This document shows, piece by piece, positions 16,552-29,724 of a stretch of 32,942 nucleotides of DNA (its first letter is position 1; every line of letters starts with the position of its first letter). Origin of the DNA: an uncultured Gammaproteobacteria bacterium (GTDB lineage Bacteria; Patescibacteriota; Patescibacteriia; UBA9570). A program made the position numbers and the translations under genes. The notes under the pieces were generated by a model, which was not told the DNA's origin, searched no databases, and was given only the letters and a program-made list of their open reading frames with translations. The stretch covers positions 1 through 32,942 of the forward strand of contig CAYYTZ010000001.1 of NCBI GenBank assembly GCA_964474735.1. The letters are read 5' to 3'.

Positions 16552-16624
16552 GCTCCTATAGCTCAGCGGTCAGAGCACAGCCCTTATAAGGCTGGGGTCG
16601 ATGGTTCAAATCCATCTGGGAGCA
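16552..16624 (+). tRNA. tRNA-Ile, anticodon TAT (UAU); no encoded CCA
   Basis: The cloverleaf reads GCTCCTA/TA/GCTC-AGCGGTCA-GAGC/A/CAGCC-CTTATAA-GGCTG/GGGTC/GATGG-TTCAAAT-CCATC/TGGGAGC/A. Confidence 0.85.
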
Positions 16625-16652
16625 CCGGTTCTTTTGCACTTTTGCAAGTTTA

Positions 16653-16779: not shown

Positions 16780-17727
16780 ATGAACATAGTCGCTATTTTA
16801 CTCACTATTGCCGGGCTGGTCCTGTTTGAGGTGATCAGTAGTATTGATAACGCCATTATTAACGCCGAAGTGCTTTCGACCATGGGTAAAAAAGCTCGCC
16901 GCTGGTTTTTAGTCTATGGATTGTTTATTGCGGTTTTTATGATTAGAGGTTTATTACCATTTTTGATTGTCTGGTTTGTTAACCCAGGCCTAGGCCCTTG
17001 GCAGGCGGTTATGGCTACTTTTAGTAGTGACCCTAAAGTAGTTGAAGCGGTAGAATTATCGGCGCCAATTTTGTTAATTGGTGGCGGAACGTTTCTGATT
17101 TTTTTGTTTTTTCATTGGTTATTTTTGGAAACGAAACATTATGGTTTAATTGGCGAAAAGTTTATTTACTCGCAGGGAATTTGGTTTTATGCAGTGGTTT
17201 CAATATTATTAGCTGCGATTGTATATTTATCTATCAAAGTAAACCCTTCCATGGCATTTGGCGCTGTGGTTGGCTCAACGGCTTTTTTCATTACCCATGG
17301 CTTCAAACAAAATGCTGAGCAAAGTGAACAAAAATTGTTGCAAAAAGGTAATATGTCAGACATCAGTAAAATTCTTTATTTGGAAATCATTGATGCAACT
17401 TTTTCAATTGACGGTGTGTTGGGGGCTTTTGCCTTTACATTATCCGTGCCATTAATTTTGGTTGGTAATGGGATTGGCGCATTTGTGGTGCGAGAATTTA
17501 CCATTGGTAATATTGAGCGCATTAAACAGTACAAGTATTTAAAAAATGGCGCTATGTATTCGATTCTCTGTTTGGGTACTGTGATGTTACTGGATAGTTT
17601 TGGTGTACATATACCAAGTTGGGTATCACCAGTCCTCACCTTCATTATTGTTGGTTACTTTTTTTTCAAGTCTCGCGCTCAGGTAGAGCCACCGCTCGGC
17701 GTAACCGGATCATCATCACAGCAGTAA
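16780..17727 (+). CDS. DUF475/TerC-family integral membrane protein
   Basis: The N-terminus FEVISSIDNAIINAEVL and the repeated TM architecture are typical of DUF475/TerC-like proteins. Confidence 0.75.
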   Translation: MNIVAILLTIAGLVLFEVISSIDNAIINAEVLSTMGKKARRWFLVYGLFIAVFMIRGLLPFLIVWFVNPGLGPWQAVMATFSSDPKVVEAVELSAPILLIGGGTFLIFLFFHWLFLETKHYGLIGEKFIYSQGIWFYAVVSILLAAIVYLSIKVNPSMAFGAVVGSTAFFITHGFKQNAEQSEQKLLQKGNMSDISKILYLEIIDATFSIDGVLGAFAFTLSVPLILVGNGIGAFVVREFTIGNIERIKQYKYLKNGAMYSILCLGTVMLLDSFGVHIPSWVSPVLTFIIVGYFFFKSRAQVEPPLGVTGSSSQQ

Positions 17728-19120
17728 TTACTGCCATATAGACGGTGAACGTTATCACCAGCTGGTTAATGATGTTTATGTCGCTTAATAGATAAAAAAA
17801 GATGGCTATAAACACTAGAGATTTTGTTCGGATGACCAAACGAATTGGTTGACCAATTTTATTTAAACTAATCGTCAGCCATAACATCATAATATATAAT
17901 ACTAAGTAACTAGCACCCCAGACTGGTTGAATCCAAGATAAAGCAATTCCAACTAGGACGGCTGCCGAAAGTCCCAAAATATACATCATTATTTTTGTCA
18001 CGGCCGCTTCTTCACTGGCAGTATTTTGATAACGGGCCAGTGGCTCAGTCAAACTAGCTGTAATTAAATAAATAACAAATAGAAACACACTTAATTTTGG
18101 ATATAATTCAACACAGGCTACACTAGTAATGATGCCAATAATGCTTATAATATTAAATTTATATGGTGTGAAATTAAAATACGTTAAAAAATTCAGCAGT
18201 GGCCTTAAAATAAATTCGCGCCGTTTATGAAATTCTAAAACGGTTTCCTTTTCCGCTTCGCTATAGTAGTTAGTAAATTGATCGTCGTTTTGGTAAACTC
18301 GGCCTTCATACAAGCGAAAGGCTTTAACTAAGCTTTCTCGAACCACAGTATAGATTTTATAAAAACCAAGCCATAATTTAATATCCACTTCAGTTTCTTT
18401 AAACTGCTTACTCATAGTATGCGTCAGTGCCTGCCAAACAGCGGCTTCAGTTTGATTAATTGGGTCAGTTATTTCCATACCTGAGCCAATTTCTATTGGT
18501 AGATGTGCATCGGATCCGCCGGTATATAAGGTTACTTCTGGATATTTATAAAAGTCCTCTGGTAGGGCATTAGCCAGATTCATGGCAGCGCGTTTTTTTG
18601 GGAAAATATATCGTACACGAAAAGTATCAAAAAACCATTTTAATCCTTTAGCGTAAGCATTACTAATTTCTGCGCCACCAATTATACGGATAGCTTCAAT
18701 GGTTTTGGCTTTACCAATTTGATATTCACAACTTGAGTTTCCGAAGGTGCTAGGGTGGGCAATGCTTCCAACTAAGTGAGGCGAATTTTTTACATAACGA
18801 GCCATGTTTAATACATCTAATTGTTTTGGCACCATCAATTTTTGATGATAAAACAAAGTAGTATCCGGTGCCATGATAATAATATCAATACCTTCACTGG
18901 TCAGAGCTTCTAAGCCGGGGAAAATGAAGGTCTTAGCGCTGGCGGGACGTTCTTCATTTAATAAACGGTAGGCTCGTTCTGGATTTTTAAAAACATGTTC
19001 TGTAATAATAACTGCAGCTAAATTCATTTCGGCGAAGCGACGCCAAATCTCGCGACAGCGACGGCGCGCACTTAAATCATTCGTTGACAGGTTCGGGTGA
19101 AAATGATAATCTACTAGCAT
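17666..19120 (-). CDS. PHP-domain phosphoesterase fused to a degenerate CDP-alcohol-phosphatidyltransferase-like membrane domain
   Basis: The PHP motifs VDYHFHPN, ITEH and GGSDAH are present. The C-terminal region of about 200 aa is visibly paralogous to ORF 23692..24306 but lacks all catalytic Asp residues. The ATG at 19120 is preferred over the GTG at 19129, which overlaps the -10 element. Confidence 0.8.
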   Translation of the reverse strand: MLVDYHFHPNLSTNDLSARRRCREIWRRFAEMNLAAVIITEHVFKNPERAYRLLNEERPASAKTFIFPGLEALTSEGIDIIIMAPDTTLFYHQKLMVPKQLDVLNMARYVKNSPHLVGSIAHPSTFGNSSCEYQIGKAKTIEAIRIIGGAEISNAYAKGLKWFFDTFRVRYIFPKKRAAMNLANALPEDFYKYPEVTLYTGGSDAHLPIEIGSGMEITDPINQTEAAVWQALTHTMSKQFKETEVDIKLWLGFYKIYTVVRESLVKAFRLYEGRVYQNDDQFTNYYSEAEKETVLEFHKRREFILRPLLNFLTYFNFTPYKFNIISIIGIITSVACVELYPKLSVFLFVIYLITASLTEPLARYQNTASEEAAVTKIMMYILGLSAAVLVGIALSWIQPVWGASYLVLYIMMLWLTISLNKIGQPIRLVIRTKSLVFIAIFFYLLSDINIINQLVITFTVYMAVITAVMMIRLRRAVALPERET

Positions 19121-19127
19121 TATTCGC

Positions 19128-19156
19128 ACTTTAGATCATTTAGTTACATCTGACAA
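19128..19156 (-). promoter_or_regulatory. Promoter for the PHP-fusion gene (leaderless)
   Basis: On the - strand, TTGTCA (19156..19151) is followed by a 17-nt spacer and TAAAGT (19133..19128). The ATG at 19120 follows 7 nt later. Confidence 0.45.
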
Positions 19157-21062: not shown

Positions 21063-21719
21063 ATGAAAGCTAAAGGAAAAGTAAAATTGCAATGGACGTC
21101 GGGTCTAGCCTATGCCGTAGGTTTATTAACCACCGATGGTAATCTTTCGCCAGATGGCAGACACATTAGCTTTACTTCAAAGGATTTAGAATTGGCCCGG
21201 AAATTGCAAAGCGGTTTAGGTATTGCCGAACATATCGGTAAAAAAGGTAATGGCGCTAACAAGTTATTAAAGAAATACTACGTTGTTCAGTTTAGTGATA
21301 AACTTTTTTATCAATTTTTATTACAACTAGGCTTAATGCCAAATAAAACAAAAAAAATGCGTCAGCTGGCTATTCCGGACAAATATTTTTTCCATTTTTT
21401 ACGTGGGCACTTTGACGGGGACGGCAGTACGTATTCATATTATGATAAACGTTGGCCAGATAGTTACATGGTATATACAACATTTTGTTCAGCCAGCCAA
21501 CCCCATATACTATGGCTAAAACATGTAATTGAGCAAAAACTAGGTATAACTGGACATATTACAAAAAGCCAAGGTAATAGTTGTTATCAATTGAAATATG
21601 CAAAAACTGAGTCGTTACTGCTCGTAGCTAAACTGTATAAAACCAAGACGGTATTATATTTAACGCGTAAGTACTTGAAAATTCAAAGAGCATTCGCTAT
21701 ACTTGGCAAGCGTATTTAG
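21063..21719 (+). CDS. LAGLIDADG-family homing endonuclease (double-motif, free-standing)
   Basis: There are two LAGLIDADG-type motifs, LAYAVGLLTTDGNL and FLRGHFDGDGSTY. A GAGG SD lies 13 nt upstream and a GCTATACT -10 lies at 21038-21045. Confidence 0.85.
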   Translation: MKAKGKVKLQWTSGLAYAVGLLTTDGNLSPDGRHISFTSKDLELARKLQSGLGIAEHIGKKGNGANKLLKKYYVVQFSDKLFYQFLLQLGLMPNKTKKMRQLAIPDKYFFHFLRGHFDGDGSTYSYYDKRWPDSYMVYTTFCSASQPHILWLKHVIEQKLGITGHITKSQGNSCYQLKYAKTESLLLVAKLYKTKTVLYLTRKYLKIQRAFAILGKRI

Positions 21720-22017: not shown

Positions 22018-22254
22018 ATGTTGATGCGAGTATTAGTTGGTTTGGGAATAATTGCTTTTGGGGTTTTTTTAATTGTAAAAACCGAGTGGATGATTTCTGC
22101 CTTTGGCCGCATTGCTTGGGCCGAAGATAAACTTGGTGCCGAAGGTGGTACGCGGGTGTTCTATAAATTACTGGGCATGACTTCCATTGTCTTGGCATTT
22201 ATGATTATGTCTGGTAAGATATTCACGCTACTGGATTGGATATTTAAACGTTAG
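22018..22254 (+). CDS. Small (78 aa) two-helix membrane protein wedged between two tRNAs
   Basis: The ATG lies 2 nt after the tRNA-Val CCA, and the TAG stop shares its G with tRNA-Ala position 1. The protein has two hydrophobic helices flanking the loop AWAEDKLGAEGGTRVFYKL. The ORF-track start at 21955 lies inside the tRNA and is rejected. Confidence 0.55.
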   Translation: MLMRVLVGLGIIAFGVFLIVKTEWMISAFGRIAWAEDKLGAEGGTRVFYKLLGMTSIVLAFMIMSGKIFTLLDWIFKR

Positions 22255-22329
22255 GGCCCTTAGCTCATTTGGTAGAGCGCCTCGTTTGCACCGAGGAGGT
22301 GGGGAGTTCGAGCCTCCCAGGGTCCACCA
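22254..22329 (+). tRNA. tRNA-Ala, anticodon TGC; CCA encoded
   Basis: The acceptor GGGCCCT/AGGGTCC carries the G3:U70 alanine identity pair. The anticodon loop is TTTGCAC. Confidence 0.9.
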
Positions 22330-22367: not shown

Positions 22368-22384
22368 TGAAATATGCATGGTTA
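22342..22384. repeat. Perfect 10-bp inverted repeat bracketing the promoter and start codon
   Basis: TAACCATGCA (22342-51) is the reverse complement of TGCATGGTTA (22375-84). The left arm overlaps the -35 and the right arm overlaps the ATG. Confidence 0.7.
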
Positions 22385-23546
22385 TGTTTCTCGAGCCATT
22401 GAACACAATATTAAAGGGGATCTTAAACAGTTCCCAGCTGTTGCTATATTAGGGCCTCGGCAATGCGGGAAATCGACTACCGCCCAAGAGATTGGGAAAC
22501 GGTACTCTAATTTTATCTATTTAGACTTAGAACGTCCATCTGATCAGCGTAAGTTGCGTGATCCGGAGTTATTTTTTAATAGTAATCAAGCGGCCTTAAT
22601 TTGTTTGGACGAGATTCAGCGTGTACCCAATATCTTTCCAGTGTTACGCAGTATCATTGATCAGAATAAGCGGCCAGGCCAATTTTTAATTCTTGGCTCG
22701 GCATCACGCGATTTATTAAAACAATCATCAGAAACTTTAGCTGGGCGGATTGCCTATAATGAATTAACGCCGTTTGTTTATAGTGAAATTTCAGCAGATC
22801 CAAAGATGAGTATCCAGCAATATTGGTTACGTGGTGGTTTTCCAAATAGCTTGTTAACGGACAGTAATACTAACAGCGCCCGGTGGCGTGAAAATTTTAT
22901 TCGTACCTATTTAGAACGTGACATTCCTCAAATGGGATTTAATATTACAGCAGAATCATTGCGCCGTTTATGGACAATGTGTGCTCATTATCATGGTCAG
23001 ATGTTAAACGCATCAGAGCTAGCTAATGCGCTCAATATATCGAGTACCACAGTGCGGTCTCATCTAGATATCCTTGAGCAAACCTTTACAGTGCGGTTAC
23101 TCAAGCCCTATATCAATAATACAAAAAAACGTTTGGTTAAATCCCCTAAGCTTTATATCCGTGATAGCGGACTGGTTCATGAACTATTGGAAGTAAGAGA
23201 TATAAACAATCTTTTAGCTCATCCTCGAGTCGGAGCATCTTGGGAGGGGTTGGTCTTAGAGAATATTATTACAACTTTACCGCAGTGGCGACCATCATTT
23301 TATCGTACAACGAATGGTGCCGAAATTGATCTAGTCCTTGAACGTGGACAAACTAGTTTAGCTTTTGAATTTAAGGCAGCTTCGAATCCAGATATAACGC
23401 GTGGTTTTTATAGCGCCATTGAAGATATTGGTATTGAACAGGCTTGGGTAGTTGTCCCAACAGGAGATGCCTCTCCAGTCAATAAACAGATCACAATTAG
23501 TAATTTGCAGGATTGTTTAGTGATACTGGCTCAACGATATTTGTAA
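22374..23546 (+). CDS. AAA+ ATPase with a C-terminal DUF4143-type domain
   Basis: Walker A is GPRQCGKST and Walker B is LICLDEIQ. The layout is typical of the AAA_14 plus DUF4143 family (YLERDI motif). Confidence 0.82.
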   Translation: MHGYVSRAIEHNIKGDLKQFPAVAILGPRQCGKSTTAQEIGKRYSNFIYLDLERPSDQRKLRDPELFFNSNQAALICLDEIQRVPNIFPVLRSIIDQNKRPGQFLILGSASRDLLKQSSETLAGRIAYNELTPFVYSEISADPKMSIQQYWLRGGFPNSLLTDSNTNSARWRENFIRTYLERDIPQMGFNITAESLRRLWTMCAHYHGQMLNASELANALNISSTTVRSHLDILEQTFTVRLLKPYINNTKKRLVKSPKLYIRDSGLVHELLEVRDINNLLAHPRVGASWEGLVLENIITTLPQWRPSFYRTTNGAEIDLVLERGQTSLAFEFKAASNPDITRGFYSAIEDIGIEQAWVVVPTGDASPVNKQITISNLQDCLVILAQRYL

Positions 23547-23653: not shown

Positions 23654-23691
23654 AAGATAGTTGATTTACTATCGATAGTGGAGTTTGGTAT

Positions 23692-24306
23692 ATGGACGAT
23701 AATAATTTATTAGATTTTTTTAGTGAGAAAGAAAGAGCTGCGCATACCAAATGGCGGAAACAGCGCACAACTTTTTTTAGCGGTATTTTAAAAATACTTA
23801 GCCGACTGGGTGTCTCAGCCAACAGTCTTTCTGTTGTAGGAATTTTGGCTGTGCTTTTATTCCCTTTTCTTGTTTCGAGACATCCATACTGGGCTATTTT
23901 TGTAGTTATTTGCCATTTATTCTTTGATGCCTTAGATGGCCCAATGGCCAGGTTTCAAAATAAACTTAATAAATTTGGATCGCTGTTGGATATTATCGCG
24001 GACCATACTGCTATGGTAATGGTGGTGGTTGGTCTGCTGGTATTAAAACTAGTGAATCCAATTGAGGCCGTTATATATGTCTACGTTTATATCATCCTGA
24101 TTGTTTTGATTATCGTGCGTAATATTGTAGGAAAATCACCTGGATTGATCATTAGGACAAAATATATTCTTTATATTAGTTATGTTGTTTTCGTGTTAAC
24201 GAATTGGCAAATTTATTCGATCCTGCTGCCGCTTTTTATTATCTTATCTATCATTCCGCTTGTTTCGTCATTAGTGGTTTTATCCAAATACTTTGCACAT
24301 GACTAA
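23692..24306 (+). CDS. CDP-alcohol phosphatidyltransferase family protein
   Basis: The signature D-x2-DG-x2-AR-x8-G-x3-D-x3-D is complete, as DALDGPMARFQNKLNKFGSLLDIIAD (nt 23926-24003). The protein has multiple TM helices. Confidence 0.85.
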   Translation: MDDNNLLDFFSEKERAAHTKWRKQRTTFFSGILKILSRLGVSANSLSVVGILAVLLFPFLVSRHPYWAIFVVICHLFFDALDGPMARFQNKLNKFGSLLDIIADHTAMVMVVVGLLVLKLVNPIEAVIYVYVYIILIVLIIVRNIVGKSPGLIIRTKYILYISYVVFVLTNWQIYSILLPLFIILSIIPLVSSLVVLSKYFAHD

Positions 24307-24823
24307 TCTTCTGCTGCAAACATTTTTATTTCTGTTACCGGCCGGAATGGCAAATATGGCCCCAGTGGTTTTCCGTTTTATCCCTTGGGGAAATCAACCG
24401 ATCGATTTTGGATACATGTTTCATGGAAGAAGAATGATTGGAAGCCAAAAAACCATTCGTGGTTTTGTTTCGGGGTCGATTATGGCAGTTACTGGCGTTT
24501 ATTTTATACGGTATTTATGGCCGGCTGCACTTTTAGAGCCAGCCATCCAAACACCCATATTATGGGGATTGGCGTTAGGTTTTGGTGCACTGACCGGAGA
24601 TGCCGTGAAAAGCTTTTTTAAACGACAAAGGGAGATTGCTTCAGGAAAATCGTGGCCACCATTTGATCAAATTGACTGGATATTTGGAGCGCTATTTTTT
24701 ACATTCCCATTTGGCGTAGTAACCTGGCCGTTGGCACTAACAGCATTACTGCTCTTTGGGCCATTGCATCCATTAATAAATATTATCGGGCGGTTGATAG
24801 GTCTAAAAAAGAATTGGTTATAG
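24293..24823 (+). CDS. CarS-like (DUF46/PF01864, CDP-archaeol-synthase family) membrane cytidylyltransferase
   Basis: LLPAGMANMAPVV...PIDFG...GRRMIGSQKTIRGF...GALTGDAVKSFFKRQ...PPFDQIDWIFGALFF matches the conserved blocks of archaeal CarS as I recall them. The gene overlaps the upstream gene by 14 nt. Confidence 0.72.
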   Translation: MHMTNLLLQTFLFLLPAGMANMAPVVFRFIPWGNQPIDFGYMFHGRRMIGSQKTIRGFVSGSIMAVTGVYFIRYLWPAALLEPAIQTPILWGLALGFGALTGDAVKSFFKRQREIASGKSWPPFDQIDWIFGALFFTFPFGVVTWPLALTALLLFGPLHPLINIIGRLIGLKKNWL

Positions 24824-25130: not shown

Positions 25131-25238
25131 ATGGCAAAGAAAAAAAAGGTTACCAAAAAAACTGCTAAGAAAAAAACAACGAAGCGTAAGGCTACGAAAA
25201 AGAAAACTGCAAAAAGAAAAACCAAGAAGCGTCGTTAG
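25131..25238 (+). CDS. 35-aa Lys/Arg/Thr-rich basic microprotein (histone-H1-tail-like composition)
   Basis: The protein is MAKKKKVTKKTAKKKTTKRKATKKKTAKRKTKKRR. It has the best SD in the window, its own promoter and its own terminator. The ORF-track start at 25041 precedes the SD and is rejected. Confidence 0.55.
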   Translation: MAKKKKVTKKTAKKKTTKRKATKKKTAKRKTKKRR

Positions 25239-25250
25239 TAAGCAGACATA

Positions 25251-25283
25251 AAAATCCCCTGACAAAATTTCAGGGGATTTTTA
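25251..25283. terminator. Bidirectional rho-independent terminator
   Basis: The stem AATCCCCTGA (25253-62) pairs with TCAGGGGATT (25270-79). An A-tract lies upstream and TTTTT downstream. It sits between the convergent microprotein and amidase genes. Confidence 0.8.
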
Positions 25284-27143: not shown

Positions 27144-28310
27144 TCAATTTGTAGTGGGATGGATTGTCGTGTCTGCTAGTGTCAGAATAATCCAAAAAAC
27201 AATTGCCAAATCATTTTTGAAATATGGCACATCAACTAAGCCGTATATTAAGATGGCCACCATACCACACAGCAAAATAATTGCCGGACAATTTTTTACT
27301 ATAAGCAATCGCCAACCAAATCTACCGACTACAAAAATTAACCATAGTAGACCAACTAAACCTAATTCAACCCAAAAATCTAAAATAATATTGTGCGGGT
27401 ACAATAGCAGTTCCACATGGCGATCCAATTTATATTGAGCGTATAAATCTGGGAAACCCGCTAAGCCGGCACCGGTGAGCGGGTGGTGCAGCAGCAGATT
27501 AGCCGTTCCTTGCCATAAAGCTAAGCGTACTTCACCGGAAGTATTTTGCATTAAAATTATTTCACGGGTGGGCGTGAACAATAGCAGTGCAATGAACATA
27601 AGCGCAGAACCAAACACAACCCACCACCAGCGTGTGAACAGTAAACAAGAGGCCACTGCTGCGAACACGGCCACCACCGCACCATCACTGCGCGACCAAA
27701 CAACCGCCAGACAGCCCAGTAAAAAGATCGGCAAGAACCATTGTTTGTGTGTACCGCGCTGTAACAAATGAGCGGCCAGGAGTGCTAACAGTGGCGCTAG
27801 GGTTAAACCGACGGCATTTGGGTAATCATAAACACTAGTAATGCGAAATTCGTCACCGGGGATGTTCCAAGGTGCCGGGATACCGTAGCCGGTCAGTAAT
27901 TGCCATATACCTATAGTGCCTATAAACACAATTAGTAGCGCGAACGCTTGAAGGATGGCCTCAAGCCGTGGGCGGATGGTTAGAACCATTATACCTACCA
28001 ACATTGGCGCAATAATATAGCTTTTATAGAGACCAAGCGCGGCCATGGTGTTTGCTGATATGATTACCGCGATTAAACCAATTATCGCAAAACTACCCAT
28101 GATATATTTCCAAATTCCCATACATAATACTCCAAGACGCGCCTGACGATATAATAATATGCAAGTGAGAAAGCTCACAACTACAACCACATCTAACACA
28201 TTTAAGCGAATACCCGCAATTTCAAAACGAACCAGATAAGTTGGCAGCAAAACAATCAAGCTCTGCAGTAAACGTTCACCCCAGTATTTAGACGTTTTGT
28301 TTATCTCCAT
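27144..28310 (-). CDS. O-antigen-ligase/Wzy_C-family polytopic membrane protein
   Basis: The protein has at least 10 TM helices. It carries the Wzy_C-like block WSRSDGAVVAVFAAV ... RLALWQGTANLLLHHPLTGAGLAGF. Confidence 0.72.
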   Translation of the reverse strand: MEINKTSKYWGERLLQSLIVLLPTYLVRFEIAGIRLNVLDVVVVVSFLTCILLYRQARLGVLCMGIWKYIMGSFAIIGLIAVIISANTMAALGLYKSYIIAPMLVGIMVLTIRPRLEAILQAFALLIVFIGTIGIWQLLTGYGIPAPWNIPGDEFRITSVYDYPNAVGLTLAPLLALLAAHLLQRGTHKQWFLPIFLLGCLAVVWSRSDGAVVAVFAAVASCLLFTRWWWVVFGSALMFIALLLFTPTREIILMQNTSGEVRLALWQGTANLLLHHPLTGAGLAGFPDLYAQYKLDRHVELLLYPHNIILDFWVELGLVGLLWLIFVVGRFGWRLLIVKNCPAIILLCGMVAILIYGLVDVPYFKNDLAIVFWIILTLADTTIHPTTN

Positions 28311-29724
28311 GCAATATAATATTTTGAACGGTAATCAATAATCCAATCGTAAACCAGATGTGGGTGATATACAAGACCGAAAAAGTATTGTACTGCACCA
28401 AAATACCGCCAAGGGCTGCAGTTAAGCCTAATAACACGGCACGTAATAGCGGATCTTTCGTGGCGGTTAGCCAAGCTTTAATGGAGCGGGCAAACAACAT
28501 AAGCATAGCGATGCTAAAACAGACTAAACCCAGAATGCCAGTTTCCGCGAGTAATTCAATATATTCATTATTAACGATGGCATAACCCTCATTTGGAACA
28601 ATTCGTGGGTGGTAGGAAGAGTACGGACCAAAGCTACCGGGACCAATTCCAATCCAGGGGTGATTTACCCAAATAGTTTCGGCGCTTGAAAAAGTTTCAA
28701 CGCGTTCTTCATAAGAAGCGCCGCCGAATAAATTTGTGACGTGCGTGGCAAAGCTGGTCAACTGTTCGCCCACATTTAAAAAACGTAGTGCTAATAACGC
28801 AACGATGCCGCAGATAACTAACCCAGCTGTAATATTTCGTATAGTGAAGACTTGTTTAAAGTACGCCAGAACGATAACCATACAACTAGCGGCAAATGCA
28901 ATGTAACCACCACGCGAAACCGTAAGCACTAAATTTAATCCGGCAATAATAATTAAACCAAATAACCAATATGATTTTATTTTGCTGGCCCGACTAAACC
29001 AGAGCGTGGCCGCTAAACACAATGGAATCAGCAAGTAGTTGGCAAAATATAATGGCTCCAAAGCGGTTGATTGAATGCGTGGGAAACCTAAGATGTCTTT
29101 GGTGTATTGTTCGCGTAAGCCGGTTAAACTGGTAGGCAAACCAACCAAATCACCGGCAAATTGATAGAGGCCAAAAATACACACAACCGCCGCGCTGATT
29201 AGTAATATTTTTATTAGCATTGCTACTTGGTTGCGATGACGAATAACATTTGGCACAGCCATGGAAAGAATAACAGTAAAAAGTGTAAAACTAAAAACTA
29301 ACAGTGAGCGTTGCAAATATGGAGCATTGCTGAGGGCTAATACATTAATAATGAGAAAGGCGCAGATAGGAATGAAAATTGGGTAACTGCGCAGCTTAAA
29401 TTTTTGCAGCAGCAAGCCACGACCTAGCCAAGCCGTGAGGCTGAGGATAGCTAGCACCTGACTAATGCGAACAGTCATGCCACCAATATCAACCGAACCA
29501 ATGCGTTCGAACGGCAAAAAGAAAGCTAATAAATATAATCCAATAAGAGGGTTCACCACTGTGATTACACTAATTGCAAAACCGATAATAAACGCGACCA
29601 GGAGCTTGAATGGCAAAAAGACCACGCCATAACTTAATCCAATGGCTAGGGCTAGGGCGCCTAAACCAAGCGTGCTATAAAGCAGCCAGGGACGAATTTT
29701 AGCGGTTGCAAAAAAGCGCATCAT
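28288..29724 (-). CDS. O-antigen-ligase/Wzy_C-family polytopic membrane protein (paralogue)
   Basis: The Wzy_C-like block is TVSRGGYIAFAASCMV ... RVETFSSAETIWVNHPWIGIGPGSF. Confidence 0.72.
   Translation of the reverse strand: MMRFFATAKIRPWLLYSTLGLGALALAIGLSYGVVFLPFKLLVAFIIGFAISVITVVNPLIGLYLLAFFLPFERIGSVDIGGMTVRISQVLAILSLTAWLGRGLLLQKFKLRSYPIFIPICAFLIINVLALSNAPYLQRSLLVFSFTLFTVILSMAVPNVIRHRNQVAMLIKILLISAAVVCIFGLYQFAGDLVGLPTSLTGLREQYTKDILGFPRIQSTALEPLYFANYLLIPLCLAATLWFSRASKIKSYWLFGLIIIAGLNLVLTVSRGGYIAFAASCMVIVLAYFKQVFTIRNITAGLVICGIVALLALRFLNVGEQLTSFATHVTNLFGGASYEERVETFSSAETIWVNHPWIGIGPGSFGPYSSYHPRIVPNEGYAIVNNEYIELLAETGILGLVCFSIAMLMLFARSIKAWLTATKDPLLRAVLLGLTAALGGILVQYNTFSVLYITHIWFTIGLLITVQNIILHGDKQNV

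What the first reader, a model, noticed from the sequence alone, without database searches (positions are those of the whole stretch)
23692..24823. Overlapping gene pair: an active CDP-alcohol phosphatidyltransferase plus an archaeal-type CarS (DUF46) cytidylyltransferase in a bacterial context
Seen in sequence: ORF 23692..24306 has a complete D-x2-DG-x2-AR-x8-G-x3-D-x3-D signature. ORF 24293..24823 overlaps it by 14 nt, which suggests translational coupling. The second ORF shows the conserved blocks I associate with CDP-archaeol synthase: LLPAxxANxxPV, PIDFG, G..xxGxxKTxRG, GDxxKSFxKR and FDQxDxxxGALxF.
Established knowledge: characterised PF01864 members are archaeal enzymes that activate unsaturated archaetidic acid with CTP. 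Bacteria normally use CdsA for the equivalent step.
Inference: this organism may activate its lipid precursor, or a scavenged lipid or polyprenyl phosphate, with a CarS-type enzyme. The product would pass directly to the co-translated transferase. The substrate could be diacyl, ether or polyprenyl, and the alcohol acceptor is unknown.
Basis: partly seen in the sequence, partly recalled or inferred. Interest (0 to 1): 0.66.

Follow-up and report, generated by a model that had tools for sequence, protein, structure and literature searches.

The report
CarS-type lipid head-group module in CPR bacterium
An ultra-small bacterium that probably cannot make its own lipids carries an overlapping gene pair, of the kind archaea use, that most likely activates a scavenged lipid with CTP and attaches a new head group; the same module is widespread in both bacterial and archaeal ultra-small symbionts.

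Summary
ORF1 (23692..24306) is a class-I CDP-alcohol phosphatidyltransferase with all eight signature residues. ORF2 (most likely 24299..24823) is a full-length CarS-family protein by Pfam PF01864, with only a partial CdsA match. Its predicted fold matches only Aeropyrum CarS (5GUF). The contig is clearly bacterial (Patescibacteria/CPR).

The pair is one instance of a conserved module. At least 555 species genomes encode a relative. In the best 80 loci, mostly CPR and some DPANN archaea, 61 have a CDP-alcohol transferase within 5 kb. About 34 also have a PHP phosphoesterase, usually in the order transferase-PHP-CarS. Some loci add a DAG-kinase-type lipid kinase.

These CarS proteins separate from the sampled canonical archaeal CarS (NJ bootstrap 196/200).

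In this window the pair and an ATPase form an insertion next to tRNA-Ala that three syntenic relatives lack. A conserved 487-aa protein 4.5 kb away fuses an intact PHP domain to a catalytically dead copy of the ORF1 fold.

Best reading: a minimal salvage or remodelling pathway from lipid phosphate to CDP-lipid to phospho-head-group lipid, followed by dephosphorylation. The lipid type and the acceptor are untested. I found no paper describing this.

The parts
23692..24306 (+). ORF1: class-I CDP-alcohol phosphatidyltransferase, 204 aa (EKD76291.1). It has six hydrophobic segments and an intact D79-x2-D82-G83-x2-A86-R87...G96-x3-D100-x3-D104 signature. It belongs to the inositol-phosphate-type branch of the family.
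   Evidence: PF01066 at E 9.8e-15. The best NCBIfam matches are archaetidylinositol-phosphate synthase (61 bits) and PIP synthase (47 bits), both below their cutoffs. A profile of its family best matches M. tuberculosis PgsA1 (6H53) and Renibacterium PIPS (5D92), E about 8e-18. Six hydrophobic segments are predicted.
24299..24823 (+). ORF2: CarS-family CTP:lipid-phosphate cytidylyltransferase, 174 aa (EKD76292.1). It belongs to the CPR/DPANN subfamily. An alternative TTG start lies at 24293.
   Evidence: PF01864 full length at 100.4 bits; PF01148 partial at 28.8 bits. NCBIfam PRK04032 scores 126.6 bits against a cutoff of 148. 5GUF matches by sequence at E 1.4e-17. The AlphaFold model has pLDDT 94, and Foldseek finds only 5GUF (E 5e-6, TM 0.71/0.78). 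All 17 residues conserved across the family are kept.
24299..24306 (+). An 8-nt overlap, ATGACTAA, in which the ORF2 start lies inside the end of ORF1. No Shine-Dalgarno sequence is visible upstream, so translational coupling by re-initiation is inferred.
   Evidence: Sequence read directly. Tight junctions between the transferase and CarS genes (overlaps of 4 to 11 nt or gaps of 0 to 6 nt) recur in relatives.
23680..23683 (+). GGAG, 8 nt upstream of the ORF1 ATG: a likely ribosome-binding site for the pair.
   Evidence: Sequence read directly. The consensus scan found no promoter upstream of ORF1.
17666..19129 (-). Conserved 484-487-aa protein (NCBI start at the ATG at 19120; EKD ACD_43C00224G0002). 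An N-terminal PHP phosphoesterase domain with intact metal ligands is fused to a C-terminal six-helix domain. That domain is a paralogue of ORF1 that has lost all four catalytic aspartates. It is the candidate membrane-anchored phosphatase of the pathway.
   Evidence: A local HMM of the ORF1 family hits residues 289-474 at E 5.6e-15. The motif is degenerate in all 27 family members, while LARYQ and PIRLVIRSK are kept. D6, H8, H10, E43, H44, E73, H124, D206 and H208 are invariant. Exhaustive HMMER shows the N-terminal half matching stand-alone PHP-like proteins and the C-terminal half matching ~200-aa transferases. Foldseek matches RNase AM PHP 7UG9 plus the PIPS and PgsA folds.
22374..23546 (+). 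AAA_14/DUF4143 ATPase, co-inserted with the pair. It is the first gene of the block that syntenic relatives lack. No functional link to lipid metabolism is shown.
   Evidence: Pfam. It has no counterpart in the collinear loci L086, L087 and L088.
22254..22329 (+). tRNA-Ala(TGC): the left boundary of the inserted block 22374..~25250.
   Evidence: ARAGORN. The same tRNA-Leu/Val/Ala cluster lies beside the amidase side in L087 and L088, without the ATPase, ORF1 or ORF2.
25249..25283 (.). A perfect 14-nt inverted repeat (TAAAAATCCCCTGA / TCAGGGGATTTTTA) between the inserted block and the convergent amidase gene. It is a likely bidirectional terminator and marks the right boundary.
   Evidence: the repeat finder pair I4.

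Best explanation
ORF2 and ORF1 encode two consecutive, translationally coupled membrane enzymes of a minimal phospholipid head-group pathway.

Step 1 (family, fold and conserved residues shown; activity inferred). ORF2 is a five-helix CarS-type cytidylyltransferase. It uses CTP to convert a membrane lipid phosphate into a CDP-lipid.

Step 2 (motif and family shown; acceptor inferred). ORF1 is a CDP-alcohol phosphatidyltransferase of the inositol-phosphate-type branch. It transfers the lipid-phosphate to a soluble alcohol, probably a phosphorylated polyol such as inositol-1-phosphate or glycerol-3-phosphate.

Step 3 (inferred from gene linkage and gene fusion). A PHP phosphoesterase removes the terminal phosphate. 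In most relatives its gene lies between the two genes. In this genome the candidate is a PHP domain fused to a dead copy of the ORF1 fold, 4.5 kb away.

Role (inferred). Patescibacteria are reported to lack lipid synthesis yet to have fatty-acyl membranes. The substrate here is therefore most likely scavenged phosphatidic acid. Diacylglycerol phosphorylated by a separate lipid kinase, as encoded in some relatives, is a further possible source. The DPANN homologues would do the same with scavenged archaeal lipids. The module would let a lipid-dependent symbiont rebuild or exchange head groups on borrowed lipids. In this genome the pair arrived as, or sits in, an insertion next to tRNA-Ala.
For: Family and fold of ORF2:
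- PF01864 matches full length and PF01148 only partially.
- 5GUF is the only PDB match, both by sequence and by fold.
- The 17 residues that are at least 90% conserved in both canonical and CPR/DPANN CarS are all present.

ORF1:
- The eight-residue signature is intact.
- The family profile is nearest to PIP synthases, AF2299 and DIPPS, and far from S. aureus PgsA.

Linkage:
- The CDPOH-PHP-CarS order occurs in Saccharibacteria and in a JGI contig, and CDPOH-CarS in Woesearchaeota.
- 61 of 80 genome loci have a transferase within 5 kb. 22 are colinear CDPOH>PHP>CarS>, and about 34 contain a PHP gene.
- Pairwise distances among the CarS proteins correlate with those among their partner transferases (Mantel r 0.49, p <= 0.001).

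Phosphoesterase as part of the module:
- PHP-transferase fusions exist, including P0280 with an intact transferase motif.
- PHP and an Exo_endo_phos enzyme occupy the same position in the Woesearchaeota loci L031 and L060, which are each other's closest relatives in the CarS tree.

Glycerolipid context:
- DAGK_cat/YegS_C lipid kinases lie between PHP and CarS in Levybacteria.
- PS decarboxylase occurs in DPANN loci, and PIG-L in Saccharibacteria loci.

Partner transferases of the PHP-containing operons score best against archaetidylinositol-phosphate synthase (93-151 bits), then PIP synthase.

Literature:
- CPR bacteria have acyl lipids but no synthesis pathway (PMC7242380).
- No lipid uptake or processing mechanism is known for them (PMC11665869).
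- The prokaryotic PIP phosphatase was still unidentified in 2015 (PMC4634129).
Against: - No activity, substrate or product has been measured.
- Characterised CarS (A. fulgidus) prefers DGGGP over phosphatidic acid and cannot complement an E. coli cdsA mutant (PMC9385802). Use of diacyl lipid therefore needs a changed specificity.
- ORF2 falls below NCBI's equivalog cutoff (126.6 against 148).
- ORF1 scores far below the AIPS and PIPS cutoffs. The second phosphate-binding arginine of PIP synthases (Rs R191) is not conserved in the window's clade, so an inositol-phosphate acceptor is uncertain here.
- In this window no PHP gene lies between the pair. The fusion gene is a syntenic core gene that is also present in relatives lacking the pair at this locus, so its link to ORF1/ORF2 is indirect.
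- PS-synthase-type partners in DPANN loci would not need a phosphatase, so the phosphoesterase may act upstream instead, for example as a phospholipase C.
- About a quarter of the loci have the CarS gene alone.
- An oral Saccharibacterium lacks the CarS gene altogether, and its single transferase is non-essential.
Confidence: 0.6

Rival explanations
1. The bacterium makes, or finishes, true archaeal-type ether lipids. ORF2 would be an authentic CDP-archaeol synthase acting on unsaturated archaetidic acid. ORF1 would be an archaetidyl-transferase, giving a mixed or archaeal-like membrane.
For: ORF2 and the partner transferases of related loci both score best against archaeal models: PRK04032, and archaetidylinositol-phosphate synthase ahead of PIP synthase. 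DPANN archaea carry the same clade of genes. Some Patescibacteria are reported to parasitise methanogenic archaea (titles of PMC10936435 and PMC12281837, listed).
Against: The window has no GGGP or DGGGP synthase, G1P dehydrogenase or isoprenoid genes. Lipidomics of a post-0.2-um CPR fraction found only acylglycerols (PMC7242380). ORF2 belongs to a clade separated from the sampled canonical archaeal CarS (196/200). It also has its own substitutions next to the catalytic DQxD, namely W119, P121, F122 and R54.
Confidence: 0.12
2. ORF2 is not a glycerolipid cytidylyltransferase. It would act on another lipid, such as a polyprenyl phosphate, or work as a CTP-dependent lipid kinase like dolichol or phytol kinases of the same superfamily. 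With ORF1 it would build a lipid anchor or carrier for a surface glycopolymer.
For: The pair lies beside envelope genes: Amidase_2, two Wzy_C, a GT4 glycosyltransferase and a Polysacc_synt flippase. PIG-L (GlcNAc-PI de-N-acetylase family) neighbours the module in 8 Saccharibacteria loci. ORF2 is below the CarS equivalog cutoff.
Against: The same envelope genes are present in the same order in L088 without the pair, so the adjacency results from insertion. A CDP-alcohol transferase partner needs a CDP-activated donor, which argues for cytidylyl transfer rather than kinase activity. Some relatives encode a separate DAGK-type lipid kinase in the same cluster. Pfam found no match to a dolichol-kinase family.
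Confidence: 0.13
3. ORF1 works like DIPP synthase or AF2299 on soluble CDP-alcohols, making a compatible solute such as di-myo-inositol phosphate. Its adjacency to ORF2 would then be incidental.
For: The ORF1 family profile also matches AF2299 and IPCT-DIPPS (E 1.6e-16 and 5e-12). NCBIfam lists the bifunctional IPCT/DIPPS model among the weak hits.
Against: ORF1 has no fused or neighbouring soluble cytidylyltransferase domain. Its conserved partner is a membrane CarS. Lipid kinase and PS decarboxylase neighbours point to lipids. Scores against PIP synthases are higher than against DIPPS.
Confidence: 0.05
4. The pair is recently acquired cargo with no role in this organism, or an assembly artefact joining archaeal DNA to a bacterial contig.
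For: The block 22374..~25250 is absent from three collinear relatives. Its left edge coincides with a contig boundary in the AMFJ01 deposit. It lies next to a tRNA cluster.
Against: ORF1, ORF2, the bacterial amidase and a partial O-antigen polymerase share one original contig. The window has no Ns, and both flanks keep the synteny of relatives. Both ORFs are intact with all catalytic and conserved residues. G+C is within the local range. No att-like direct repeat was found, and no viral copies.
Confidence: 0.05

Closest known systems
CDP-archaeol synthase CarS (A. fulgidus AF1740; A. pernix structure 5GUF), Pfam PF01864
   Same: The Pfam match is full length. The length is similar, and the predicted helical fold matches 5GUF (TM 0.71/0.78). 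Identity to ApCarS is about 31%. The PAxxAN, PxD, KTxxG, GDxxxSFxKR and DQxD blocks are conserved, and all 17 family-wide conserved residues are kept.
   Different: The host is a bacterium. The protein belongs to a clade of CPR and Woese-/Pace-/Nanoarchaeia sequences that separates from the sampled canonical CarS (196/200). The clade has its own residues: R54, W119, P121 and F122. The protein is below the NCBIfam equivalog cutoff. The likely lipid is diacyl rather than DGGGP, which is an inference.
Bacterial CDP-diacylglycerol synthase CdsA (PF01148; T. maritima 4Q2E)
   Same: It belongs to the same CTP-transferase superfamily and performs the analogous reaction, phosphatidate + CTP -> CDP-DAG. 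That is the reaction proposed here in a bacterial cell.
   Different: Only residues 52-115 of ORF2 match 62 of the 264 profile positions. ORF2 is about 100 residues shorter than the 264-position PF01148 profile. No CdsA structure was found by sequence or fold search.
Archaetidylinositol-phosphate synthase and bacterial PIP synthase (M. tuberculosis PgsA1 6H53, Renibacterium PIPS 5D91/5D92)
   Same: ORF1 shares the eight-residue signature and has six hydrophobic segments. These are its best NCBIfam and PDB matches. An arginine aligns with the first arginine of the RxxR motif that contains Rs R153.
   Different: Scores are far below the equivalog cutoffs (61 against 180; 47 against 170). The equivalent of Rs R191 is not conserved in the window's clade. 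The partner that activates the lipid is a CarS, not a CdsA.
IPCT-DIPPS (A. fulgidus AF0263, 4MND): a cytidylyltransferase coupled to a CDP-alcohol transferase
   Same: The activating cytidylyltransferase and the CDP-alcohol transferase are coupled genetically, and the acceptor is a phosphorylated inositol whose phosphate is later removed.
   Different: In IPCT-DIPPS the cytidylyltransferase is a soluble domain that activates inositol phosphate, and the product is a solute. Here the activating enzyme is an integral-membrane CarS acting on a lipid.
PHP-family phosphoesterases (RNase AM/TrpH 7UG9; 3',5'-nucleoside bisphosphate phosphatase)
   Same: The operon-encoded PHP proteins and the N-terminal domain of the 487-aa fusion share the fold and the metal ligands.
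   Different: All NCBIfam scores are below their cutoffs. Here the domain is linked or fused to a lipid head-group transferase, and no PHP enzyme is known to me as a PGP or PIP phosphatase.

Membership tests
CarS / PF01864 (CDP-archaeol synthase family) | Profile match above Pfam's gathering score over the whole domain | tested here: met
   100.4 bits against a cutoff of 22; residues 3-175 on profile positions 1-174 of 175.
CarS / PF01864 (CDP-archaeol synthase family) | NCBIfam equivalog PRK04032 (CDP-2,3-bis-(O-geranylgeranyl)-sn-glycerol synthase) trusted cutoff | tested here: not met
   126.6 bits against a cutoff of 148. This is family membership without equivalog-level assignment.
CarS / PF01864 (CDP-archaeol synthase family) | Five-helix CarS fold as in 5GUF | tested here: met
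   The AlphaFold model has pLDDT 94.1. Foldseek's only significant hit is 5GUF, E 5e-6, TM 0.71/0.78.
CarS / PF01864 (CDP-archaeol synthase family) | Residues conserved across the family, including D36, D101, K108, R109, D123 and Q124 in the cytoplasmic loops | tested here: met
   17 of 17 positions that are at least 90% conserved in both canonical and CPR/DPANN sequences are kept. I could not map them onto published ligand contacts because the structure paper is not held.
CarS / PF01864 (CDP-archaeol synthase family) | CTP + unsaturated archaetidic acid (DGGGP) -> CDP-archaeol activity | not testable with these tools
   This needs an enzyme assay. Characterised AfCarS is selective for DGGGP (PMC9385802).
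CdsA / PF01148 (CDP-diacylglycerol synthase) | Full-length match to the roughly 264-position profile | tested here: not met
   Only residues 52-115 match profile positions 169-230, at 28.8 bits. No CdsA structure was retrieved.
Class-I CDP-alcohol phosphatidyltransferase / PF01066 | D1xxD2G1xxAR...G2xxxD3xxxD4 signature and profile match | tested here: met
   The signature runs from D79 to D104. PF01066 scores 55.7 bits against a cutoff of 22.
Class-I CDP-alcohol phosphatidyltransferase / PF01066 | Six transmembrane helices (the architecture of members with soluble acceptors) | tested here: met
   Six hydrophobic segments by Kyte-Doolittle scan. The length of 204 aa leaves no room for the extra helices of CEPT-type enzymes.
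Archaetidylinositol-phosphate / PIP synthase (NF040950, NF045883) | Equivalog score cutoffs | tested here: not met
   61 bits against 180, and 47 bits against 170. These are still the best-scoring families.
Archaetidylinositol-phosphate / PIP synthase (NF040950, NF045883) | Two arginines that bind the phosphate of inositol phosphate (Rs R153 and R191) | tested here: inconclusive
   The arginine of ORF1's IIRTK aligns with the first arginine of RsPIPS's RSER motif. At the R191 position ORF1 has no arginine, and its closest relatives have lysine.
PHP phosphoesterase (for the 487-aa protein at 17666..19129) | PHP fold with conserved His, Asp and Glu metal ligands | tested here: met
   Pfam gives only PHP_C at 20.5 bits against 21.3, just below cutoff. 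However, D6, H8, H10, E43, H44, E73, H124, D206 and H208 are invariant in 27 relatives, and Foldseek's top hit is the RNase AM PHP domain, E 6e-5.

The most novel reading that the evidence does not exclude
Ultra-small symbionts of both domains, CPR bacteria and DPANN archaea, share one exchangeable head-group cassette. It consists of a CarS-type activator, an inositol-phosphate- or glycerol-phosphate-type transferase and a PHP or EEP phosphoesterase, sometimes with a DAG-type kinase. The cassette would re-tailor lipids stolen from hosts. Its CarS would have relaxed or switched specificity, working on bacterial diacyl lipids and so crossing the 'lipid divide' at the activation step. Its PHP enzyme would be the long-missing PIP/AIP (or PGP) phosphatase.
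Probability: 0.3. Interest if true: 0.85.

Novelty: new variant of a known kind. Interest (0 to 1): 0.62.

Why it matters
CarS is treated in the literature I could read as an archaeal enzyme that, together with CdsA, upholds the lipid divide (PMC4244643, PMC9385802). Patescibacteria are described as lacking lipid synthesis and as having no known way of taking up or processing lipids (PMC11665869).

A CarS clade that is widespread in CPR bacteria bears on both points. It is genetically welded to a head-group transferase and a phosphoesterase.
- It gives a concrete, testable route by which lipid-dependent episymbionts could rebuild phospholipids from scavenged precursors.
- It provides natural CarS variants in which to test substrate specificity for acyl against isoprenoid lipids.
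- It names a candidate, the PHP protein, for the phosphatase step of prokaryotic inositol-lipid synthesis.
- The PHP fusion to a dead transferase is a clean example of a pseudoenzyme domain, possibly reused as a membrane or substrate-binding anchor.

Tried and rejected
Literature. Ten full-text searches and several targeted reads found no paper that describes CarS in CPR bacteria. Coleman 2019 does not treat CarS. Villanueva 2020 reports CarS absent from the FCB genomes it studied. The ApCarS structure paper is not held, so published ligand residues could not be mapped.

CdsA elsewhere in the genome. This was not testable. No cdsA, pls, GGGPS, DGGGPS or MIPS gene lies in the window.

Mobility.
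- No att-like direct repeats flank the insertion.
- No CarS relative was found in IMG/VR viral contigs.
- No convincing promoter or terminator was found for the pair.

Direction of transfer. Inter-domain transfer between CPR and DPANN could not be resolved. Mixed subclades have bootstrap support of at most 26%, and the window's sister group is unresolved (55/200 with a Peribacteria sequence).

Look-ups. The window's own genes could not be found by exact look-up in the look-up of encoding contigs.

The 487-aa protein. I first considered it a simple relocated operon PHP. I rejected that because it is a syntenic core gene in relatives and is only 22% identical to the operon PHPs.

CarS-alone loci. 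I suspected that ~660-700-aa ORFs upstream of lone CarS genes formed a fourth component. They proved to be unrelated housekeeping genes: UvrD, RNase J, RecG and GyrB.

Coordinate error. My minus-strand references trimmed the wrong end, losing the Met and keeping the stop. This did not affect the Pfam results, but exact look-ups failed until I corrected it.
Full report
**1. Observation**

The ORF listing and the raw sequence show both ORFs exactly as described.

ORF1 (23692..24306, 204 aa) contains FFDALDGPMARFQNKLNKFGSLLDIIAD, which is the complete D-x2-DG-x2-AR-x8-G-x3-D-x3-D signature. It matches PF01066 at E 9.8e-15.

It matches PF01864 (CarS-like) from end to end (E 1.5e-28, 100.4 bits). 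PF01148 (CdsA) matches only residues 52-115, at 28.8 bits.

The ATG at 24299 is the better start. The public protein EKD76292.1 has 174 residues, and homologues start at the equivalent position. The overlap is then 8 nt, ATGACTAA, with no Shine-Dalgarno sequence in front. ORF1 has a GGAG 8 nt upstream of its start.

**2. Context**

The window is a Patescibacteria (CPR) contig from the ACD_43 bin. It encodes gyrA, ftsH, ribosomal proteins S1, S16 and L19, SMC, RNase III, NusB, TIM, a peptidoglycan amidase, two Wzy_C proteins, a GT4 glycosyltransferase and a flippase. It also has five tRNA genes. No other lipid gene is present in the window.

**3. Identity of ORF2**

- *Sequence.* The only PDB match by sequence is Aeropyrum pernix CarS, 5GUF (E 1.4e-17), with all motif blocks aligned.
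- *Fold.* An AlphaFold model built on 30 homologues is confident (pLDDT 94, pTM 0.88). Its only significant Foldseek hit is 5GUF (E 5e-6, TM 0.71/0.78).
- *Conserved residues.* I aligned 80 sequences of the window's group (the window plus 79 genome loci) with 26 canonical archaeal CarS. Seventeen positions are at least 90% conserved in both groups, and the window protein keeps all of them. Four positions are group-specific: R54, W119, P121 and F122, against E, A, L and L in canonical CarS. Three of these lie immediately before the DQxD block.
- *Equivalog level.* NCBI's equivalog model PRK04032 scores 126.6 bits, below its cutoff of 148.

ORF2 is therefore a CarS-family member, but not demonstrably an isofunctional CDP-archaeol synthase.

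**4. Distribution and phylogeny**

- A search of 5.8 billion proteins gave 581 hits. The named ones include Woesearchaeota, DHVE6, Saccharibacteria and Patescibacteria.
- A scan of one genome per GTDB species found at least 555 genomes with a relative.
- The best 80 loci are 60 CPR- or bacterium-named genomes, 10 DPANN-named genomes and 10 MAGs with implausible names. The CPR groups include Saccharibacteria, Peri-/Peregrinibacteria, Levy-, Collier- and Shapirobacteria, Microgenomates, WS6, Parcubacteria, Kerfeld-, Buchanan- and Sungbacteria. The DPANN groups are Woese-, Pace- and Nanoarchaeia.
- In a neighbour-joining tree, all of these sequences separate from canonical CarS of TACK, Euryarchaeota and Aenigmarchaeota. 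Bootstrap support for that split is 196/200.
- Sampling was biased towards the best hits of two queries, so intermediate sequences may exist.
- Inside the clade, CPR and DPANN sequences are intermixed, but support is low (at most 26%). The window's sister group is unresolved.

**5. The pair is part of a conserved module**

- In a Saccharibacteria genome and a JGI contig the order is CDP-alcohol transferase, PHP phosphoesterase, CarS, on one strand and overlapping. In a Woesearchaeon it is Exo_endo_phos, transferase, CarS.
- Across the 80 genome loci, local HMMs and clustering find a transferase within 5 kb in 61. The colinear transferase>PHP>CarS order occurs in 22. A PHP gene is present in about 34. 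CarS stands alone in 18-19.
- The lone CarS genes sit among ordinary bacterial housekeeping genes.
- Rarer neighbours were confirmed by Pfam and NCBIfam. A DAGK_cat/YegS_C lipid kinase occurs in 6 loci, and in Levybacteria it lies between PHP and CarS. Exo_endo_phos occurs in 5 loci. Phosphatidylserine decarboxylase occurs in 5 loci, four DPANN-named and one a MAG with an implausible name. PIG-L occurs in 8 Saccharibacteria loci.
- The Woesearchaeota loci L031 and L060, each other's closest relatives in the CarS tree, carry PSD-transferase-CarS-PHP and PSD-transferase-CarS-EEP respectively. One phosphoesterase has displaced the other at the same position.
- Distances among the CarS proteins correlate with distances among their partner transferases (Mantel r 0.49, p <= 0.001). 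This fits co-inheritance, although shared species phylogeny would give the same result.

**6. What ORF1 is**

- Its best NCBIfam models are archaetidylinositol-phosphate synthase (61 bits) and PIP synthase (47 bits), both far below their cutoffs.
- A profile of ORF1 and 10 relatives best matches M. tuberculosis PgsA1 and Renibacterium PIP synthase (E about 8e-18), then AF2299 and DIPPS. S. aureus PgsA scores only 1e-4.
- Partner transferases in the PHP operons reach 93-151 bits against the archaetidylinositol-phosphate synthase model. Other partners are PgsA-like, for example L063 at 105 bits and L004 at 71 bits.
- PIP synthases bind the acceptor's phosphate with two arginines (PMC4634129). 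The first has an equivalent in ORF1, in IIRTK. The second is arginine in the Saccharibacteria and Levybacteria partners but not in the window's clade.
- The acceptor of ORF1 is therefore uncertain. A phosphorylated polyol is the best guess.

**7. A second, unexpected component in the window**

- The 487-aa ORF at 17666..19129 on the minus strand has an N-terminal PHP-like domain. Its C-terminal domain (residues 289-474) matches an HMM of the ORF1 family at E 5.6e-15. That domain falls in ORF1's own subclade.
- It belongs to a conserved family of Patescibacteria 'hypothetical proteins': 26 further clusters, 46-76% identical to the window protein.
- In all 27 members, including the window protein, the four catalytic aspartates are lost, while LARYQ, G2 and PIRLVIRSK are kept. 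The PHP metal ligands are invariant.
- An exhaustive HMMER search shows the two halves matching stand-alone PHP-like proteins of about 270 aa and stand-alone transferases of about 200 aa. One distant full-length relative, P0280, keeps an intact transferase motif.
- The AlphaFold model (pLDDT 84.5, with a disordered linker at 273-296) matches the RNase AM PHP domain and the PIP/PGP synthase folds.
- Gene fusion is independent evidence that the PHP enzyme and this transferase family work together.

**8. Genomic history in this window**

- Three contigs that carry the fusion gene (L086-L088) are collinear with the window. L088 is collinear from TIM and gyrA to the polysaccharide genes, about 25 kb, and L086 and L087 over the parts their contigs cover. 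L087 and L088 include both tRNA clusters.
- Within the shared region the window-only genes are a LAGLIDADG ORF, the AAA_14/DUF4143 ATPase, ORF1 and ORF2.
- The block 22374..~25250 is therefore an insertion between tRNA-Ala(TGC) and the amidase gene.
- It is not a chimera on the right side. The original 5,273-bp NCBI contig holds the ATPase, ORF1, ORF2, the amidase and a partial O-antigen polymerase.
- The left edge coincides with a contig boundary in that deposit. It is continuous and N-free in the window and consistent with synteny.
- No flanking direct repeats and no viral copies were found.

**9. Mechanism**

The most economical reading is a three-step pathway, with four steps where a lipid kinase is present.
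1. A lipid phosphate is activated with CTP by the CarS-type enzyme.
2. The lipid-phosphate is transferred to a soluble, probably phosphorylated, alcohol by the CDP-alcohol transferase.
3. The product is dephosphorylated by the PHP enzyme, or by an EEP enzyme in some loci.
4. In some lineages a DAG-type kinase would feed phosphatidic acid into step 1.

The following are shown:
- the family, fold and conserved residues of both enzymes;
- their conserved linkage;
- the recurrence, displacement and fusion of the phosphoesterase.

The following are inferred:
- the activities themselves;
- the order of the steps;
- the acceptor alcohol;
- the nature of the lipid.

Diacyl lipid is favoured for two reasons. 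A CPR-enriched fraction contained only acylglycerols, and CPR genomes lack lipid synthesis (PMC7242380). This is an inference that runs against the DGGGP preference of the characterised AfCarS (PMC9385802).

The phosphoesterase could instead act upstream as a phospholipase C. That would better fit the PS-synthase-type partners in the DPANN loci.

**10. Comparison and novelty**

The enzymes are members of known families. NCBI already labels some CPR copies 'CDP-archaeol synthase', while the window's own proteins are labelled 'hypothetical'.

Four features appear to be undescribed in the literature I could search:
- the CPR/DPANN-specific CarS clade;
- its conserved operon with an inositol-phosphate-type transferase and a PHP enzyme;
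- the PHP-transferase fusions, including a pseudoenzyme form;
- the implication for lipid salvage in symbionts.

An oral Saccharibacterium studied by Tn-seq has one non-essential CDP-alcohol transferase. Its gene tables hold no PF01864, PF01148 or DAGK entries. The module is therefore not universal in the phylum.

I rate this a new variant of a known kind, with interest 0.62.

Noticed in passing
window 17666..19129 (-): A conserved 484-487-aa 'hypothetical protein' fuses an intact PHP phosphoesterase domain to a catalytically dead paralogue of the ORF1 CDP-alcohol transferase fold. It is a syntenic core gene in related Patescibacteria. A distant relative, P0280, keeps the active transferase motif.
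   Followed up: yes
window 22374..~25250, compared with L086, L087 and L088: The ATPase, ORF1 and ORF2 form an insertion between tRNA-Ala(TGC) and the amidase gene. Three otherwise collinear relatives lack it. The left edge coincides with a contig boundary in the AMFJ01 deposit.
   Followed up: yes
window 21063..21719 (+): A free-standing LAGLIDADG homing-endonuclease-like ORF lies between rplS (L19) and tRNA-Leu(GAG). It has no counterpart at the same place in the collinear relatives L086-L088.
   Followed up: partly
window 16552..16626 (+): tRNA-Ile with a UAU anticodon lies next to tRNA-Val(GAC). The same pair is conserved in L086-L088. This suggests AUA is decoded without lysidine, which I did not examine further.
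   Followed up: no
window 25131..25238 (+): A tiny, extremely lysine-rich ORF (MAKKKKVTKKTAKKKTTKRKATKKKTAKRKTKKRR) has a strong GAGGAGG ribosome-binding site. Its coding region shows a 15-nt periodic repeat (family D1). A perfect 14-nt inverted repeat follows at 25249..25283. This exact protein sequence was not found in the protein collection.
   Followed up: partly
L031 5557-6327 compared with L060 5557-6348 (Woesearchaeota): Two loci that are each other's closest relatives in the CarS tree read PSD-transferase-CarS-PHP and PSD-transferase-CarS-Exo_endo_phos. One phosphoesterase has replaced a non-orthologous one at the same position.
   Followed up: partly
L019, L037, L070 and L078 (Levybacteria); also L010 and L077: A DAGK_cat/YegS_C lipid kinase gene lies between the PHP and CarS genes in the four Levybacteria loci, and near the CarS gene in L010 and L077. 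This suggests diacylglycerol as an entry point to the pathway.
   Followed up: partly
L013, L017, L021, L025, L030, L034, L046, L050, L071 and L077: MAGs titled 'uncultured Gammaproteobacteria', 'Pseudomonadales' or 'Methanosarcinales' carry CPR/DPANN-type CarS loci. One (OZ246416.1) is a 0.886-Mb chromosome. The organism names are probably placeholders or mislabels.
   Followed up: no
L002 6509-7222 and seven other Saccharibacteria loci: A PIG-L (GlcNAc-PI de-N-acetylase/MshB family) gene lies convergent to the CarS gene. This hints at glycosylated inositol lipids or inositol conjugates.
   Followed up: partly
window 27144..29724 (-): Two tandem Wzy_C (O-antigen ligase/polymerase-like) paralogues are followed by a GT4 glycosyltransferase and a Polysacc_synt flippase. 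The arrangement is conserved in L088.
   Followed up: no
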